A stretch of DNA of 64,000 nucleotides from Gammaproteobacteria bacterium. GTDB taxonomy: Bacteria; Pseudomonadota; Gammaproteobacteria; Eutrophobiales; Eutrophobiaceae. The position numbers and the translations under genes were made by a program. The notes below the pieces were generated by a model, which had not been told where the DNA came from, searched no databases, and saw only the letters and a program-made list of their open reading frames with translations. The stretch is taken from assembly GCA_041556555.1 (NCBI GenBank), contig JBFFIE010000001.1:64671-128670 (forward strand), in the 5' to 3' direction. This document shows, in pieces, positions 32,543 to 37,695 of the stretch (position 1 is its first letter; every line of letters starts with the position of its first letter).

Positions 32543-33352
32543 TTATGACTTGTAAATCAGTATTTCCCCCTTATTAAGCTCGACGCTGTCACCACTCCAG
32601 CGTTGGTACTTTCCAGTTAATTGCGCATCATTGATATTGAATCCCTGTGATTGCAGTGTCATGAATAACAATCGCAGGTAGACAGGATGGTAATCGCAGT
32701 CGTAACTGAACGTTGGCAGCATCTCGGCTGGATTCATAGTTATGATTGAACCCCGTTTCATCCCGGCCCCGCTACGAATACCCATCTCACCGAGGACAAC
32801 GATTGTACCTGCCAACATATTGACACCGGTAAAGTCGCCGCAGTTGCCCCCGATCACAATCAGGCCGTTACGCATCCCGTGGCCTGTCTCATTTTTTGCA
32901 TGGCCATGAATAAAGATTTCCCCGCCAAGCATACCGGCAGTACTGCCTCGATAGGCACTGCCGGCCAGATGTTTGGCATTACCCTTTATCACGATCCGGC
33001 CACCGGCCATTTCTGGTCCAACCCAGTCACCGGCATTACCTTCGACAGTAATTTCACCACCACTCATGCCGACGCCAAGATGTTCACCCACATCCCCATG
33101 GATGTATAAGTTTCCTGTTGTCATGCCACTCCCCAGATGCTTTACACGGGCGAGGTCACCTTCGAGGTGGATCTCACCCTCGCCCTTGCCCTTGACCTTG
33201 AAAAAATCACCGACGGTCACCTGTTCATTGCCATGCTGTATTTGTAATCTGGATACTGCGTTGCTATCAAGTCCCAGGGTTTTATCAGGACCAAGTAATT
33301 CTGCTTCCAGGGGAACCTGGGGCCGGGTATGCATGGACAGTTCGAGGCTCAT
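32543..33352 (-). CDS. Formylmethanofuran dehydrogenase subunit C-like (second paralog)
   Basis: 269-aa ORF with the same GxxGxxxG beta-helix repeats (GDVGEHLGVGMSGGEITVEGNAGDWVG...). It overlaps the upstream Ftr paralog by 4 nt. Confidence 0.85.
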   Translation of the reverse strand: MSLELSMHTRPQVPLEAELLGPDKTLGLDSNAVSRLQIQHGNEQVTVGDFFKVKGKGEGEIHLEGDLARVKHLGSGMTTGNLYIHGDVGEHLGVGMSGGEITVEGNAGDWVGPEMAGGRIVIKGNAKHLAGSAYRGSTAGMLGGEIFIHGHAKNETGHGMRNGLIVIGGNCGDFTGVNMLAGTIVVLGEMGIRSGAGMKRGSIITMNPAEMLPTFSYDCDYHPVYLRLLFMTLQSQGFNINDAQLTGKYQRWSGDSVELNKGEILIYKS

Positions 33353-34245
33353 GCTGCCTCCTCAAGCAGGTCTTTCAACTGGATCTTGAACTGACCGAGA
33401 TTACCACCGTAATTGCCGGCGGTAATTTGTTTGATCCCGGGCTTTATTGCCGCATGCAGGCCAGCCTGCATGGCCTTACTGACAGCGTCCACATCCAGGC
33501 CATCAATCACGATCTCCAGTACACAGTTTGCTCCATCAACGACATTTGATTCGGGGGCTATACCGCGTAATGTTGGGCAGTAAGCATCATTGGTCGAGGC
33601 AATCAATGTCTTGTATTTTGATCCGACCTTGCTGCCACTTCTTACGACGCCATCTGGAAAGGGGAGAATGACACCTGCAATTTCCCGCATGGCCTTAGTT
33701 GAGGCATTGGCAGCACGCAGTGTGGTCTTCAGATCCCTGCCGATGATTAATATGTTTCCACCACCAACCGCGGGTTGCAAGGCAAAGGATTCATCCACCA
33801 TGAATTCACCATCCATGACCGGAATTCGCCAGTAGCGGCGTTGCTGGATCTGTTTACTGTTTTGATAGCCGTCTCCAAAATATCGAAGTTGCCCGCCTAC
33901 CATTACAGTTCGTTCTGCATCCAGGCCATTGAAACAGGCTGTGGTCGGACAGGTCATGACGCATTGTCCAATGCGTTCGACCAGCCGTTTACCTAGTCCC
34001 TCGGCATCTGTCGCGAAGATCAGAACGCTTACTCCGGGGCGTTGGTCTGGAGTTTCAGCAATGGAAAGTTCACGTTCAATACCTGCTTCACATTTGCAAC
34101 CGATGACTGACGTTGCAAACCCGGTCATTGACCGTGCTGCAGCCATTGCCCATTGCCTGGTTTCAGCGGTAATCACAACCCGTGATGCCCACATCTTGAA
34201 GGCTTCAGCAAACGTATCTGCAATCTCGGTAGACTTGATCTTCAT
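33349..34245 (-). CDS. Formylmethanofuran--tetrahydromethanopterin N-formyltransferase (second paralog)
   Basis: 298-aa ORF. MKIKSTEIADTFAEAFKMWASRVVITA... is collinear with fhcD over its whole length, with roughly half the residues identical by eye. Confidence 0.85.
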   Translation of the reverse strand: MKIKSTEIADTFAEAFKMWASRVVITAETRQWAMAAARSMTGFATSVIGCKCEAGIERELSIAETPDQRPGVSVLIFATDAEGLGKRLVERIGQCVMTCPTTACFNGLDAERTVMVGGQLRYFGDGYQNSKQIQQRRYWRIPVMDGEFMVDESFALQPAVGGGNILIIGRDLKTTLRAANASTKAMREIAGVILPFPDGVVRSGSKVGSKYKTLIASTNDAYCPTLRGIAPESNVVDGANCVLEIVIDGLDVDAVSKAMQAGLHAAIKPGIKQITAGNYGGNLGQFKIQLKDLLEEAA

Positions 34246-35885
34246 GAGTTAACTGTGGGGATTATTTCGTGTTCGTGCAGGTAATGATCGGCCACACCAT
34301 AATTTTCAAATTCAATTGAATAGTATTTTTCAAAGAATGGCCGGATATCTTCGGAAATCTCTTCATCAAATTCTGGTGCTGAGTGTAAAATTTTTCCGTA
34401 ATAGTCATTCCTGAACTCATGGTTCTCGATCACCATTTCACCGGACTTGATCACATAACGGGGGGCATTAAACATCATTTCCCTGTCTTCATGATCATCA
34501 TAAACGGTGATATCGGCATCGGCTCCCGGTCCGAGCTGGCCCTTGTGTTTCAGGTTGAGGGCACGTGCGGGCGCGGCTCTGGAAATGATTGCAATCTCGT
34601 TAAGGGTATATTCACGATCCAGCGACGGCAGGTTGGTTTTGGCAATCGCCTTTGGATTAACTTTGCCGATTTCTTCCTTGCGAAACTCCTTGTCCATCAG
34701 TAGACGAATCAGTTTCGGGTAGTTCATAAACGATCCGCCATTGGGATGATCAGTTGAGAGCATGATACGCCAGGGATCTTGTGATAACAGGAAGAGTTCG
34801 AGTCCTATCGCCCATTGCAATGCATGCGTGAATACATGTTCCTGGTATGAAAAGGGCAGAATTCCACAACCGCTTTCACATTCGGAATCGGCATTTACCC
34901 ATTTGCCTTTTTTGAACCCACGCAGGAGATAGGCGAGCGGTGCATCTGCCGTCATGATAGTGGATTTACCGAACATTACCTGGCCAACATCACAGGTGAT
35001 GTTCGGATGTGTATTGACGTATTCAGCGATCTCGGCAGCCTTTGAGTCCGGATTTTTACCGGGTTCCCCACCGTAACTGTGAAACTGGATATGAGCCACG
35101 TGCATCCGCAGGTCCCCGGCAGTCTTCATGGTTTCCAGAGTGGTTTTATAATTACCACTATGGCCCAGGTTATTGCAGTGAACATGGGGTGGATGAGGCA
35201 GGCCGAGTTCATTCACGGTTTTAACAAAGCTCTCGATAACATCGCGTGGGGAGATGTTTAAGAGGTCGCTTTTCTCATCTATGTCTTTGACATTGGAATT
35301 ACGCTTGCCTTTCCAGGGTTCATCGCCACCCGGATTGACCAGCTTCGCCGTATAGGCCTTGGTCCTGTTAATCCACCAGCCAACGGCCTGTTTGAATTCA
35401 TCATGCCGTCCTTCCTTCAACAGGGTTTGCAGATAAATATTATTGCCCAGCAGGAGGTAGAAGCCTTTGTCGATGACCGGCGTATCATGCAGCTCTTCAA
35501 CTGTATGCAACGCGCCGATAGGTGTAACGGCGGCTTCCATGACGGTGGTATATCCAAGGGTTGCATAGCGATAGCCGGTCGCAAACGTGGAGGGCACAGT
35601 GCCGCCGGAACCGGAACGGGTAAAGTTTGTCCCGGGATGTGGGTCATGGCGGTGGTCTTCGGGCTGGAGCTTGCGAGCAAGATTGACCTTGGGACCGGCA
35701 ATGTGGCTATGAATATCCACGCCACCGGGCATGATCACCATGCCGCTGGCATCGATACTAGGTGCATTGTCTGGCAGGTTGTCGACTATCTTGCCATTCT
35801 TGATACAAATATCGCGTACTTCACCATCGATATTGTTTGCCGGGTCATATACCCTGCCATTGACGAAACGCAGCGTGGAAGCCAT
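34242..35885 (-). CDS. Formylmethanofuran dehydrogenase subunit A-like amidohydrolase (second paralog)
   Basis: 547-aa ORF with VDIHSHIAGPKVN (HxH). It is collinear with fhcA and overlaps the Ftr paralog by 4 nt. Confidence 0.85.
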   Translation of the reverse strand: MASTLRFVNGRVYDPANNIDGEVRDICIKNGKIVDNLPDNAPSIDASGMVIMPGGVDIHSHIAGPKVNLARKLQPEDHRHDPHPGTNFTRSGSGGTVPSTFATGYRYATLGYTTVMEAAVTPIGALHTVEELHDTPVIDKGFYLLLGNNIYLQTLLKEGRHDEFKQAVGWWINRTKAYTAKLVNPGGDEPWKGKRNSNVKDIDEKSDLLNISPRDVIESFVKTVNELGLPHPPHVHCNNLGHSGNYKTTLETMKTAGDLRMHVAHIQFHSYGGEPGKNPDSKAAEIAEYVNTHPNITCDVGQVMFGKSTIMTADAPLAYLLRGFKKGKWVNADSECESGCGILPFSYQEHVFTHALQWAIGLELFLLSQDPWRIMLSTDHPNGGSFMNYPKLIRLLMDKEFRKEEIGKVNPKAIAKTNLPSLDREYTLNEIAIISRAAPARALNLKHKGQLGPGADADITVYDDHEDREMMFNAPRYVIKSGEMVIENHEFRNDYYGKILHSAPEFDEEISEDIRPFFEKYYSIEFENYGVADHYLHEHEIIPTVNS

Positions 35886-37312: not shown

Positions 37313-37347
37313 TTCAGACTCCCGTCAGGTGATCGTCGTGGTCGCTA

Positions 37348-37695
37348 TCATGCGGCCACCTTCTCAATTTTAACTTGCATATGCTTGGATAAAGGCATGC
37401 CACTGCCCGCGGTATCACCGTCCATGAGTTGACTGGATGGCGGGCCATAGGCGATGAAGAGAATGCCAGATGGCAAGTCATCGGGCTTGCGTCCCTTGCA
37501 GCGCACAACGGCACTACCTATCTCGTTACTGATCTTGACCTCATCCCCGTCCTTTAGTTTCAGGCGGGTCATATCGTCCATGTTCATCTCCAGGGTTGAG
37601 GTAACGTCAATGTATTCTTCCTTGAGTTTGCCCTTGTTCAGGGAGGTGCCCTGTTTACTGCTGCGACCGGGGATTAAAATCATGGTTTCTGTCAT
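37348..37695 (-). CDS. Formylmethanofuran dehydrogenase subunit D-like (molybdopterin-dinucleotide-binding beta-barrel domain)
   Basis: MTETMILIPGRSSKQGTSLNKGK...LKLKDGDEVKISNEIGSAVVRCKG...IAYGP is typical of FwdD/FmdD and the MopB C-terminal domain. I preferred the ATG at 37695 because GAGGAGG lies about 8 nt upstream; the ORF track starts at 37734. Confidence 0.75.
   Translation of the reverse strand: MTETMILIPGRSSKQGTSLNKGKLKEEYIDVTSTLEMNMDDMTRLKLKDGDEVKISNEIGSAVVRCKGRKPDDLPSGILFIAYGPPSSQLMDGDTAGSGMPLSKHMQVKIEKVAA

What the first reader, a model, noticed from the sequence alone, without database searches (positions are those of the whole stretch)
32543..37695. Second, archaeal-style formylmethanofuran dehydrogenase-like operon (FwdD-FwdB-FwdA-Ftr-FwdC) that keeps the Mo/W active site lost in the adjacent Fhc paralog
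The window carries two complete paralogous B-A-Ftr-C clusters on the same strand, about 2 kb apart. The first (25887-30581) looks like the classical methylotroph formyltransferase/hydrolase complex. Aligning the two B subunits by hand shows no gaps across either catalytic region. In one region copy 2 reads IDTTTSVCHGPSGLAFQDIGESTSTL and copy 1 reads IDHMHSNAAFRNLDVLQNHGYVMTTL. In the other, copy 2 reads FVAKPVRGHGNVTGA and copy 1 reads FAGFSLGGSEGGMTA. Copy 2 therefore keeps the Cys-His pair (xCHGPS, as in the (Sec/Cys)-His of FDH-H and archaeal FwdB) and the conserved Arg of the LRGxxNxxGA motif. Copy 1 has Ala-Ala and Gly at those positions. Copy 2 is also preceded by a 116-aa FwdD/FmdD-like molybdopterin-dinucleotide-binding subunit, which the classical Fhc cluster lacks. 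Fhc is described as a non-redox hydrolase that releases formate. A bacterial cluster with an intact FwdBD redox module suggests direct oxidation of formyl-methylofuran to CO2 (or the reverse) without free formate. I cannot tell from memory whether this variant has been characterised biochemically in any bacterium.
Basis: partly seen in the sequence, partly recalled or inferred. Interest (0 to 1): 0.85.

Follow-up and report, generated by a model that had tools for sequence, protein, structure and literature searches.

The report
Bacterial Fwd–Fhc hybrid formyl dehydrogenase operon
Next to the usual formate-releasing Fhc genes, this uncultured methylotrophic gammaproteobacterium has a second gene set that keeps the metal-pterin redox site and sits beside its own ferredoxin and NADPH-ferredoxin reductase genes, so it probably oxidises the formyl group straight to CO2; no bacterial enzyme of this kind has been characterised in the literature I could search.

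Summary
Two paralogous B-A-Ftr-C clusters lie on the minus strand. Only cluster 2 (32543-37695) is preceded by a FwdD gene.

- **Redox site:** its B subunit keeps the four [4Fe-4S] cysteines plus Cys119/His120/Arg291, which align with Cys118/His119/Arg288 of M. wolfeii FwdB. It also keeps 64 of 75 positions that are near-invariant in archaeal catalytic FwdB. The paralog B1 keeps 33.
- **Conservation:** the triad is invariant in 80 of 80 orthologs. The same positions drift freely in B1 orthologs.
- **"Archaeal-style" is only half right:** gene order, an FhcD-like Ftr and an FhcC-type C-terminal helix-loop-helix on the C subunit are all Fhc features. The cluster is a hybrid of Fwd and Fhc.
the 2-kb "gap" encodes a 7Fe FdxA ferredoxin and an FprA-type NADPH:ferredoxin reductase. 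They follow cluster 2 in 55/56 and 51/53 related loci, including loci with no Fhc cluster beside them.

Best reading: a Mo/W-dependent enzyme that oxidises formyl-H4MPT to CO2 and passes the electrons to ferredoxin and NADP+, in parallel with Fhc plus NAD-linked formate dehydrogenase.

Similar fwdDBA-ftr-fwdC operons have been noted in Actinobacteria. A 2016 review stated that fwdD is absent from Proteobacteria. I found no biochemical study of a bacterial enzyme of this kind. I rate it a new variant of a known kind.

The parts
37348..37695 (-). fwdD: small subunit equivalent to domain IV (the molybdopterin-dinucleotide-binding cap) of formate dehydrogenases, 115 aa
   Evidence: Pfam PF01568 at 40 bits and NCBIfam FwdD at 72 bits. 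PDB FwdD chains 2ki8, 8rja_D and 5t5i_D match at E=1e-16 to 3e-12. A Shine-Dalgarno sequence precedes the ATG at 37695. Present upstream of B2 in 78 of 80 related loci.
35951..37312 (-). fwdB-like catalytic subunit (B2), 453 aa. N-terminal [4Fe-4S] cysteines C13/C16/C20/C41; Cys119-His120 and Arg291 at the Mo/W site.
   Evidence: 5t5i_B E=1e-111, 9sfi_Q E=8e-122, with SVCHGPS identical. The triad and the Fe-S cysteines are invariant in 80/80 orthologs. It keeps 64 of 75 near-invariant archaeal FwdB positions. It is the most conserved cluster-2 enzyme subunit (FwdD, B2, A2, Ftr2, C2), median 81%.
34242..35885 (-). fwdA/fhcA-like amidohydrolase (A2), the formyl-methanofuran/methylofuran hydrolase site
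   Evidence: TIGR03121 at 711 bits and FwdA NF042911 at 572 bits. The motifs holding the binuclear-metal ligands of FhcA (His57/59, Lys176, His229, His258, Asp377) are conserved in the A1/A2 alignment; ligand assignment by motif.
33349..34245 (-). ftr/fhcD-like formylmethanofuran:H4MPT formyltransferase (Ftr2)
   Evidence: Pfam FTR and FTR_C. The closest solved chain is FhcD 6s6y_D, E=8e-96, ahead of archaeal Ftr.
32543..33352 (-). fwdC/fhcC-like beta-helix subunit (C2) with an FhcC-type C-terminal helix-loop-helix
   Evidence: TIGR03122 at 258 bits. The core matches 5t5i_C, but residues 213-266 align only with FhcC 210-262. The AF2 model has pLDDT 95 with helices at 224-235 and 242-246. Best TM-score and rmsd are to 6s6y_C (0.90, 2.1 Å).
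32198..32503 (-). fdxA: 7Fe ([3Fe-4S][4Fe-4S]) ferredoxin, 101 aa, 39 nt downstream of C2. Proposed electron acceptor.
   Evidence: NCBIfam FdxA_Protbact at 112 bits, below its curated cutoff of 135. A. vinelandii FdI structures match at about E=1e-29. It follows C2 in 55 of 56 loci, median gap 68 nt.
30799..32175 (-). fprA-type (adrenodoxin-reductase-like) NADPH:ferredoxin oxidoreductase, 458 aa, 22 nt downstream of fdxA
   Evidence: M. tuberculosis FprA 1lqt E=7.5e-112; adrenodoxin reductase 1cjc E=6e-95. It follows fdxA in 51 of 53 loci, including 14 loci with no Fhc cluster next to it.
25887..30581 (-). Paralogous Fhc-type cluster fhcB-A-D(ftr)-C (B1 29304-30581, A1 27639-29297, Ftr1 26738-27634, C1 25887-26741): the non-redox comparator
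   Evidence: B1 has Ala116/Ala117/Gly291 at the triad positions. In orthologs these positions vary freely while the Fe-S cysteines are kept. B1 keeps only 33 of 75 archaeal near-invariant positions. No FwdD gene precedes it. C1 is closest to FhcC 6s6y_C.
21416..25890 (-). fdsGB fusion (24226-25890) and fdsA (21416-24226): NAD-linked Mo formate dehydrogenase, translationally coupled to the Fhc cluster
   Evidence: Pfam 2Fe-2S_thioredx + Complex1_51K + NADH_4Fe-4S on one protein; Fer2_4 + Molybdop_Fe4S4 + Molybdopterin + Molydop_binding on the other. Start and stop codons overlap.
37696..37946 (.). Divergent intergenic region between fwdD and the H4MPT-biosynthesis genes on the + strand; presumed promoter region of the fwdDBA-ftr-fwdC-fdxA-fprA operon
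   Evidence: Only inferred, from gene spacing. The consensus promoter scan gave nothing above chance. No Rfam element was found.

Best explanation
Genes 30799-37695 form one operon, fwdD-fwdB-fwdA-ftr-fwdC-fdxA-fprA. It encodes a hybrid of archaeal formylmethanofuran dehydrogenase (Fwd/Fmd) and the bacterial formyltransferase/hydrolase complex (Fhc).

Proposed mechanism:
1. Ftr2, docked on the FhcC-like C-terminus of C2, moves the formyl group from formyl-H4MPT to methanofuran/methylofuran.
2. A2 hydrolyses formyl-M(Y)FR at its binuclear metal site.
3. The formate is not released. It passes to the Mo- or W-bis-pyranopterin site of B2/FwdD (Cys119 ligand, His120, Arg291) and is oxidised to CO2.
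4. The two electrons leave through the B2 [4Fe-4S] cluster to the 7Fe ferredoxin FdxA, and from there through FprA to NADP+. Alternatively the reduced ferredoxin is used directly.

The adjacent fhcBADC-fdsGBA operon is a parallel route through free formate and an NAD-linked formate dehydrogenase.

Shown by the sequence evidence: subunit identities, retention and strict conservation of the redox residues, the FhcC-type C-terminus, and the conserved gene linkage.

Inferred: cofactor occupancy, which metal is bound, the direction of the reaction, formate channelling, and the ferredoxin/FprA coupling. I put the ferredoxin/FprA coupling taken alone at about 0.45.
For: - B2 aligns end to end with solved archaeal FwdB/FmdB chains (E=1e-101 to 8e-122). 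Cys-His and Arg fall on Cys118/His119/Arg288.
- 64 of 75 near-invariant archaeal positions are kept in B2, against 33 in B1. B1 specifically loses the WGxNP, DxR and RGHxNV motifs.
- FwdD is present and matches solved FwdD chains.
- The triad and the Fe-S cysteines are invariant in 80/80 orthologs. B1 orthologs vary freely at the triad positions.
- Across 29 genomes that carry all 11 genes, B2 is the most conserved of the cluster-2 enzyme subunits (FwdD, B2, A2, Ftr2, C2; median 81%), while B1 is the least conserved subunit of cluster 1 (median 50%). A1 and A2 are equal at 75-76%.
- In a neighbour-joining tree of family representatives, B2 falls with the catalytic archaeal FwdB and one bacterial Cys-His-Arg lineage, away from the degenerate majority.
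- The C2 C-terminus is FhcC-like, and Ftr2 is FhcD-like.
- The gaps C2-fdxA (39 nt) and fdxA-fprA (22 nt) contrast with 217 nt before fhcB.
- fdxA follows C2 in 55/56 loci and fprA in 51/53 loci. This includes 14 loci where no Fhc cluster follows.
- FprA and 7Fe ferredoxin identities are well supported.
- The organism makes Mo-bisPGD enzymes anyway: FdsA, NapA and a third MopB enzyme.
Against: - There is no biochemical, metal or expression evidence.
- The AF2 model of B2 alone is poor exactly in the cofactor loops (pLDDT 68), so pocket geometry was not checked.
- All 80 surveyed loci come from related uncultured Gammaproteobacteria (B2 at least 76% identical). Part of the fdxA/fprA linkage could therefore be inherited synteny rather than functional coupling. 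Two loci break it: L071 lacks both genes and L080 lacks fprA.
- The nearest bacterial non-gamma relative (L083) has no ferredoxin next to the cluster.
- Archaeal Fwd/Fmd are oxygen-sensitive, and this host looks aerobic or denitrifying (XoxF, Nap).
- One locus (L055) has no fwdD directly upstream of B2.
Confidence: 0.68

Rival explanations
1. The complex is a true Mo/W formyl-M(Y)FR dehydrogenase, but fdxA and fprA are only neighbours. The real electron acceptor is something else: another ferredoxin, Rnf, or a quinone-linked partner.
For: All surveyed loci are from one gammaproteobacterial radiation, so synteny may be inherited. L080 lacks fprA and L071 lacks both genes. The bacterial relative L083 has no adjacent ferredoxin, and archaeal relatives use different Fer4 proteins. 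FdxA-type ferredoxins are common housekeeping proteins (established knowledge).
Against: Linkage holds in 55/56 and 51/53 loci, over divergence at which C2 is only about 56-60% identical. The gaps are operon-like (median 68 and 46 nt). The pair stays with cluster 2 when the Fhc cluster is absent. A catalytic FwdB with no FwdF/G polyferredoxin needs some soluble Fe-S partner.
Confidence: 0.17
2. The cluster runs in the reductive direction, as in methanogens. It would fix CO2 to formyl-M(Y)FR and formyl-H4MPT for C1 assimilation during lithotrophic (for example sulfur-oxidising) growth, with FprA/FdxA delivering electrons from NADPH.
For: Archaeal Fwd is reversible and physiologically reductive. 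The window carries a SoxYZ gene. Relatives are labelled Thiotrichaceae or Chromatiales MAGs.
Against: CO2/formyl-MFR has E0' of about -530 mV. NADPH is at about -320 mV (established knowledge). FprA is a simple, non-bifurcating reductase, so NADPH-driven CO2 reduction is strongly uphill. The surrounding island is the oxidative methylotroph set: XoxF, Fae, MtdB, Mch, Fhc, FDH. The Ftr-docked, Fhc-like architecture is known from the oxidative system.
Confidence: 0.07
3. Cluster 2 is functionally just another Fhc, a formate-releasing hydrolase. B2 and FwdD would be scaffolds whose ancestral residues have not yet decayed, or which bind the cofactor only structurally.
For: Most members of the wider FwdB/FhcB family have lost the triad yet keep the Fe-S cysteines, showing that scaffolding versions evolve readily. 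Fhc is the only bacterial member that has been characterised.
Against: The triad is invariant in 80/80 orthologs, across lineages where the same positions in B1 have drifted to at least 18 different combinations. B2 is the slowest-evolving subunit and B1 is the fastest-evolving of its cluster. FwdD is retained in 78/80 loci. A redundant second hydrolase would not explain the linked redox partners.
Confidence: 0.05

Closest known systems
Archaeal tungsten/molybdenum formylmethanofuran dehydrogenase FwdABCD(FG)/FmdABCD (M. wolfeii 5T5I; Ca. Ethanoperedens 8RJA; M. hungatei 7BKB)
   Same: FwdB with an N-terminal [4Fe-4S] cluster and the Cys-His...Arg active site. A separate FwdD cap subunit. A FwdA amidohydrolase with a binuclear metal site. 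A FwdC beta-helix. About 43-46% identity for B2 in the family alignment.
   Different: No FwdF/FwdG/FwdE/FwdH polyferredoxin or accessory genes. Ftr is encoded inside the operon. C2 has the FhcC-type C-terminal helix-loop-helix rather than the FwdC beta-hairpin. The host is an aerobic or denitrifying methylotroph. The putative partner is a soluble 7Fe ferredoxin plus FprA. The expected direction is oxidative.
Bacterial formyltransferase/hydrolase complex FhcABCD (Methylorubrum extorquens, 6S6Y)
   Same: Gene order B-A-D(ftr)-C. An FhcD-like Ftr (E=8e-96). The FhcC-like C-terminus that docks Ftr. Location in an H4MPT methylotrophy island.
   Different: M. extorquens FhcB lacks the Fe-S domain, the Cys/His/Arg triad and FwdD, and the complex releases formate. 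B2 keeps all of these. Cluster 1 of this window is the true Fhc counterpart, although its B1 still has the four Fe-S cysteines.
fwdDBA-ftr-fwdC operon reported in Hakuba Happo Actinobacteria single-cell genomes (Merino et al. 2020, PMC7325909); fwdD-bearing H4MPT islands of NC10, Firmicutes and Synergistetes (Chistoserdova 2016, PMC5020050)
   Same: Identical gene order, with FwdD, the [4Fe-4S] domain and Cys118 retained. All are bacterial and none is characterised biochemically. A related bacterial context was seen here in L083.
   Different: Those organisms are anaerobes or non-methylotrophs, and the Hakuba genomes lack methanopterin biosynthesis genes. No paired canonical Fhc cluster and no linked FdxA/FprA were described for them. 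Chistoserdova 2016 states that fwdD is not present in Proteobacteria, and this window and at least 78 related gammaproteobacterial loci contradict that.
M. tuberculosis FprA with a 7Fe ferredoxin (NADPH:ferredoxin oxidoreductase couple); A. vinelandii FdI
   Same: FprA homolog E=7.5e-112. FdI-type 7Fe ferredoxin at about E=1e-29.
   Different: Here the pair is encoded in an operon with a C1-oxidising metalloenzyme. The proposed physiological direction is ferredoxin to NADP+.

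Membership tests
Fwd/Fmd formylmethanofuran dehydrogenase | FwdB with four cysteines for the N-terminal [4Fe-4S] cluster | tested here: met
   C13/C16/C20/C41 align with the FwdB cysteines and are invariant in 80/80 orthologs.
Fwd/Fmd formylmethanofuran dehydrogenase | Metal-ligand Cys/Sec followed by His, plus the catalytic Arg (Cys118/His119/Arg288 in 5T5I) | tested here: met
   Cys119/His120/Arg291 align with them.
Fwd/Fmd formylmethanofuran dehydrogenase | Conserved pterin-region residues of catalytic FwdB | tested here: met
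   64 of 75 positions that are at least 11/12 identical in archaeal catalytic FwdB are kept, including WGxNP, DxR and RGHxNVTG. B1 keeps 33. This rests on sequence conservation only. Actual cofactor contacts were not mapped, because the B2 model was poor.
Fwd/Fmd formylmethanofuran dehydrogenase | Separate FwdD subunit (domain IV cap) | tested here: met
   Pfam PF01568; PDB FwdD chains at E=1e-16 to 3e-12.
Fwd/Fmd formylmethanofuran dehydrogenase | FwdA amidohydrolase with binuclear metal ligands, and a FwdC beta-helix subunit | tested here: met
Fwd/Fmd formylmethanofuran dehydrogenase | Polyferredoxin or Fe-S electron-transfer subunits (FwdF/FwdG) in the complex or operon | tested here: not met
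   No such gene lies in or beside the operon. Only a 101-aa FdxA follows it.
Fwd/Fmd formylmethanofuran dehydrogenase | Mo or W bis-PGD bound; formyl-MFR to CO2 redox activity | not testable with these tools
   Needs purification, metal analysis and enzyme assays.
Fhc formyltransferase/hydrolase complex | Gene order B-A-ftr-C, with the formyltransferase as a complex subunit | tested here: met
   Gene order confirmed. Ftr2 is closest to FhcD. Physical association is inferred, not shown.
Fhc formyltransferase/hydrolase complex | FhcC C-terminal helix-loop-helix (residues 216-246) that docks FhcD | tested here: met
   C2 residues 213-266 align with FhcC 210-262. The AF2 model has helices at 224-235 and 242-246, pLDDT 95. 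The overall Foldseek comparison is nearly tied between 6s6y_C and 5t5i_C.
Fhc formyltransferase/hydrolase complex | B subunit without the Mo/W site, no FwdD, formate released | tested here: not met
   B2 keeps the site and FwdD is present. Cluster 1 does meet this feature at sequence level. Formate release itself is not testable here.
FprA / adrenodoxin-reductase-type NADPH:ferredoxin reductase with a 7Fe ferredoxin | Full-length similarity to FprA, and to an FdI-type [3Fe-4S][4Fe-4S] ferredoxin | tested here: met
   1lqt E=7.5e-112; FdI about 1e-29. The NCBIfam FdxA score of 112 is below its curated cutoff of 135.

The most novel reading that the evidence does not exclude
A widespread, so far uncultured radiation of methylotrophic Gammaproteobacteria carries a living intermediate between archaeal Fwd and bacterial Fhc. 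The radiation includes MAGs labelled USC-gamma, Thiotrichaceae and Ca. Oxydemutatoraceae. The enzyme would be a Mo/W formyl-methylofuran dehydrogenase with the formyltransferase already docked. It would oxidise formyl-H4MPT to CO2 without free formate and, at about -530 mV, give these aerobes a dedicated source of low-potential reduced ferredoxin and NADPH. It would be the first bacterial formylmethanofuran dehydrogenase, and it would show the order of steps by which Fhc evolved: Ftr docking before loss of redox chemistry.
Probability: 0.4. Interest if true: 0.8.

Novelty: new variant of a known kind. Interest (0 to 1): 0.62.

Why it matters
- **Pathway textbook view.** Current accounts have aerobic methylotrophs and methanotrophs ending the H4MPT pathway at free formate, through the non-redox Fhc complex. 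[quoted passage not shown]
- **What a functional bacterial enzyme would add.** It would add a second, formate-free exit to CO2. It would change the electron and NAD(P)H balance used in metabolic models of these organisms. It would also offer a rare route to low-potential ferredoxin in aerobes.
- **Evolution.** It gives a concrete test of the proposed path from Fwd to Fhc.
- **Ecology.** The clade is environmentally common. The exact B2 protein is on record in 71 blocks of public assemblies, and at least 581 related loci were found across species genomes. One of those genomes is a USC-gamma MAG, a group tied to atmospheric methane uptake (my own knowledge).
- **Applied interest.** An Fwd-like enzyme from a host that appears to be aerobic could also interest work on CO2-reduction catalysis, if it proves more oxygen-tolerant than the archaeal enzymes; that tolerance is not established here.

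Tried and rejected
- **Moco riboswitch.** Rfam scans of the whole window (gathering threshold) and of 30400-38100 (E<=1) found nothing, including no Moco/Wco riboswitch that could have tied the operon to Mo or W supply.
- **Promoters and terminators.** The consensus scan gave counts at or near shuffle expectation. It does not define operon boundaries. Operon structure rests on gene spacing only.
- **B2 structure model.** The AF2 model with a shallow alignment was poor: pLDDT 68, below 50 in loops 115-135, 154-175, 257-266 and 291-327. Foldseek still ranks archaeal FwdB (1e-38) far above FhcB (5e-19) and FDH-H. I did not use the model for pocket analysis.
- **Taxon names.** The listing of cluster members returned almost no names for family representatives. 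The phylogenetic placement is therefore by gene context and a rough neighbour-joining tree. It should not be read as evidence for the direction of gene transfer.
- **Cultured hosts.** tblastn of B2 against PLSDB plasmids and chromids found only FhcB-like hits at 28% identity or less in cultured Proteobacteria. No cultured host of a B2-type gene was identified. The genome scan lists only its best 80 of at least 581 loci, so cultured carriers may exist further down that list.
- **Literature gap.** Adam, Borrel & Gribaldo 2019 (Nat Microbiol) is the most relevant survey of bacterial Fwd/Fhc, and it is not in the library. It may already record proteobacterial fwdD.
- **Recent duplication rejected.** The paralogs are 27-51% identical, so cluster 2 is not a recent duplicate of cluster 1.
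- **Selenoprotein rejected.** The active-site codon encodes Cys in all 80 orthologs.

Full report

Yes. ORF listing and translation show two runs of genes on the minus strand.
- Cluster 1 is B1 29304-30581, A1 27639-29297, Ftr1 26738-27634 and C1 25887-26741.
- Cluster 2 is FwdD 37348-37695, B2 35951-37312, A2 34242-35885, Ftr2 33349-34245 and C2 32543-33352.

The FwdD ORF extends to 37734. The ATG at 37695 has a GAGGAGGAG Shine-Dalgarno sequence 8 nt upstream, and gene callers on public contigs give 115 aa.

Pfam and NCBIfam confirm every assignment. B2 scores 513 bits on the FwdB/FhcB model TIGR03129. B1 scores 299 bits, below the 327.8 cutoff. The paralog pairs are 27% (B), 47% (A), 51.5% (Ftr) and 33% (C) identical. 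These are ancient paralogs, not a recent duplication.

**2. Does B2 really keep the redox site?**

B2 aligns end to end with five solved archaeal FwdB/FmdB chains, at E=1e-101 to 8e-122. I counted residues along the printed 5T5I alignment. B2 Cys119/His120 fall on Cys118/His119, and Arg291 falls on Arg288. Hemmann et al. 2019 name exactly these residues as the catalytic ones lost in M. extorquens FhcB. The four cysteines of the N-terminal [4Fe-4S] cluster are also present.

I aligned 121 full-length family representatives with three PDB sequences. Seventy-five columns are at least 11/12 identical among 12 archaeal catalytic FwdB sequences.
- B2 keeps 64 of them (85%).
- B1 keeps 33 (44%). It specifically loses C118, H119, G120, P121, W149, N152, P153, H157, D185, R288, H290 and N292.

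FwdD matches the solved FwdD chains 2ki8, 8rja_D and 5t5i_D at E=1e-16 to 3e-12. The structural check was weak. The AF2 model of B2 had pLDDT 68 and was disordered in the cofactor loops. Foldseek nevertheless ranked archaeal FwdB (1e-38) far above FhcB (5e-19).

**3. Is the site under selection?**

A scan of one genome per species found at least 581 related loci. The best 80 are all uncultured Gammaproteobacteria MAGs, with B2 76-97% identical.
- In all 80, the four Fe-S cysteines and the Cys-His-Arg triad are invariant.
- In the 38 B1 orthologs on the same contigs, the Fe-S cysteines persist (36/38), but the three active-site positions take at least 18 different combinations.
- In 29 genomes that carry all 11 genes, B2 is the most conserved of the cluster-2 enzyme subunits (FwdD, B2, A2, Ftr2, C2; median 81%). 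B1 is the least conserved subunit of cluster 1 (50%). A1 and A2 are equal at 75-76%.

This asymmetry is what a catalytic B2 and a scaffold B1 would produce.

**4.

The 2-kb "gap" between the clusters is not empty. It encodes two proteins:
- a 101-aa 7Fe ferredoxin of the A. vinelandii FdI / FdxA type (about E=1e-29);
- a 458-aa homolog of M. tuberculosis FprA, an adrenodoxin-reductase-type NADPH:ferredoxin reductase (E=7.5e-112).

They sit 39 nt and 22 nt behind the preceding genes. By contrast, 217 nt separate fprA from fhcB. Across the related loci, fdxA follows C2 in 55/56 cases and fprA in 51/53. After fprA comes fhcB in 34 loci, fdsB directly in 4, and neither in 10. The redox pair therefore travels with cluster 2, not with Fhc.

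The Fhc cluster is itself translationally coupled to an NAD-linked Mo formate dehydrogenase, an FdsGB fusion plus FdsA.

**5. "Archaeal-style" is only half right.**

- Archaeal fwd operons lack ftr and contain polyferredoxin genes. Neither is true here.
- The order B-A-ftr-C is that of fhcBADC.
- Both Ftr1 and Ftr2 are closer to FhcD (6s6y_D, E=8e-96 and 2e-93) than to archaeal Ftr.
- The beta-helix core of C2 is most like FwdC, but residues 213-266 align only with FhcC 210-262.
- A confident AF2 model (pLDDT 95) places helices at 224-235 and 242-246. [quoted passage not shown]
- Foldseek gives the best TM-score and rmsd to 6s6y_C (0.90, 2.1 Å), though 5t5i_C is nearly tied.

The cluster is thus a hybrid: a Fwd-type redox module (B and D) on an Fhc-type chassis (docked Ftr).

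**6. Mechanism proposed.**

The steps run as follows:
1. Formyl-H4MPT passes its formyl group to M(Y)FR at Ftr2.
2. Formyl-M(Y)FR is hydrolysed at A2. The motifs that hold the FhcA metal ligands are conserved in both A1 and A2.
3. Formate is oxidised to CO2 at the Mo/W site of B2/FwdD.
4. Electrons go through the [4Fe-4S] cluster to FdxA, and then through FprA to NADP+.

With CO2/formyl-MFR at about -530 mV, the oxidative direction to ferredoxin and NADP+ is favourable. The reverse direction from NADPH is not.

The window is an oxidative methylotrophy island. It carries an XoxF-like PQQ dehydrogenase with XoxJ, Fae, MtdB, Mch, and H4MPT/MFR biosynthesis genes. The organism also makes other Mo-bisPGD enzymes: FdsA, NapA and a third MopB protein.

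Cofactor occupancy, metal identity, formate channelling and the FdxA/FprA coupling are all inferences.

**7. Place in the family.**

A full HMMER search of 1.84 billion representatives gave 2655 relatives. Of the 121 full-length representatives among the top 150, only 16 keep Cys-His-Arg, while nearly all keep the Fe-S cysteines.

In a rough neighbour-joining tree, B2 groups with two sets of sequences:
- a bacterial lineage, P0123, whose 90%-cluster member P0271 sits in an H4MPT island with MtdB, FwdD, FwdA, Ftr, FwdC and Mch;
- the archaeal catalytic FwdB, including archaeal FwdD-FwdB fusions.

B1 sits on a long branch among the degenerate sequences.

**8. Compared with the literature.**

- Hemmann et al. 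2019 describe Fhc as the only known bacterial MYFR enzyme. They propose that Fhc evolved from Fwd by loss of the dehydrogenase, association of Ftr with FhcC, and creation of a MYFR anchor. Cluster 2 shows Ftr association without loss of the dehydrogenase.
[quoted passage not shown] In 2023 they counted 149 bacterial FwdB hits, without functional discussion.
- Merino et al. 2020 reported the same fwdDBA-ftr-fwdC order, with the Fe-S domain and Cys118, in Actinobacteria single-cell genomes.
- The 2024 review of FMD enzymes lists only archaeal enzymes and Fhc as characterised.
- Metagenome papers sometimes list "fwdABCDE" for gammaproteobacterial methanotrophs without comment.
- I could not read Adam et al. 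2019.

The operon type is therefore known at gene level in other phyla. I did not find any description in the searchable literature of its occurrence in Proteobacteria, its pairing with a canonical Fhc-FDH operon, its FhcC-type docking element, or its linked FdxA/FprA. No member has been studied biochemically.

**9. Verdict.**

I rate it a new variant of a known kind. The hypothesis is well founded, directly testable and of moderate to high interest (0.62). My confidence in a CO2-forming Mo/W dehydrogenase function is about 0.68. My confidence in the ferredoxin/FprA coupling taken alone is about 0.45.

Noticed in passing
window 29304-30581 (B1), and B1 orthologs in L001-L080: The degenerate FhcB paralog keeps all four N-terminal [4Fe-4S] cysteines (C15, C18, C22, C41), as do 36 of 38 orthologs and nearly all triad-less family representatives. 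M. extorquens FhcB lacks the whole domain. So most 'FhcB' proteins may still bind an Fe-S cluster whose role is unknown.
   Followed up: partly
window 21416-26741: fhcC overlaps the start of a NuoE+NuoF fusion (FdsGB, 554 aa) by 4 nt. That gene in turn overlaps fdsA (936 aa, Mo formate dehydrogenase). Fhc and its formate-consuming NAD-linked dehydrogenase appear to be one translationally coupled operon.
   Followed up: partly
L081/L082 (gene at 8001-9719) and proteins P0121, P0127, P0129, P0140, P0144: Relatives of 570-606 aa carry about 140-165 extra N-terminal residues. P0286 (L081/L082), a 572-aa member of the P0129 cluster, has precomputed Pfam hits Molydop_binding plus Molybdopterin, so it is a FwdD-FwdB fusion, and it sits in an archaeal context (proteasome and exosome genes, followed by a Fer4 protein, FwdA, FwdC and Mch). 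The other long proteins were not checked individually for the domain or for their context.
   Followed up: partly
L055:9000-10010: This one related locus has no FwdD ORF in the 1 kb directly upstream of the B2 ortholog; all three forward frames are full of stop codons. The rest of the cluster is intact.
   Followed up: partly
L019, L028, L048, L049 and ten further loci: In these relatives fprA is followed directly by fdsB-fdsA, or by unrelated genes, with no Fhc cluster within the flank. Some genomes may rely on the Fwd-type cluster alone. Whole genomes could not be scanned.
   Followed up: partly
window 16943-18883, 19695-20573, 3551-5329: There is a PQQ methanol/ethanol dehydrogenase carrying the DYDG motif typical of lanthanide XoxF enzymes (read by eye), with an XoxJ-like binding protein downstream. 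A second PQQ dehydrogenase lies at 3551-5329. No methane monooxygenase genes were seen in the window.
   Followed up: partly
window 15287-16150: A single ORF fuses SoxY and SoxZ domains (287 aa, with a signal-peptide-like N-terminus). This hints at thiosulfate or sulfur oxidation in a methylotroph.
   Followed up: no
window 56985-59150 and 59310-62857: There is a cytoplasmic MopB-family molybdoenzyme of unknown substrate (721 aa, Molybdop_Fe4S4 + Molybdopterin + Molydop_binding). Alongside it, reading the translations by eye, lie a NapA-like periplasmic nitrate reductase and two small multi-CxxCH cytochrome ORFs that I take to be NapB and NapC (not scanned against any library). The organism therefore has several Mo-bisPGD enzymes.
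   Followed up: no
window 20603-21385: A 260-aa ORF with a signal-peptide-like N-terminus lies between xoxJ and fdsA. It has no Pfam match.
   Followed up: no
family-wide (P0121-P0270): Some representatives show Gly, Asn or Glu in place of the metal-ligand Cys while keeping His and Arg (patterns GHR, NHR, EHR). They could be misalignments, partly decayed sites, or sites with an unusual ligand.
   Followed up: no
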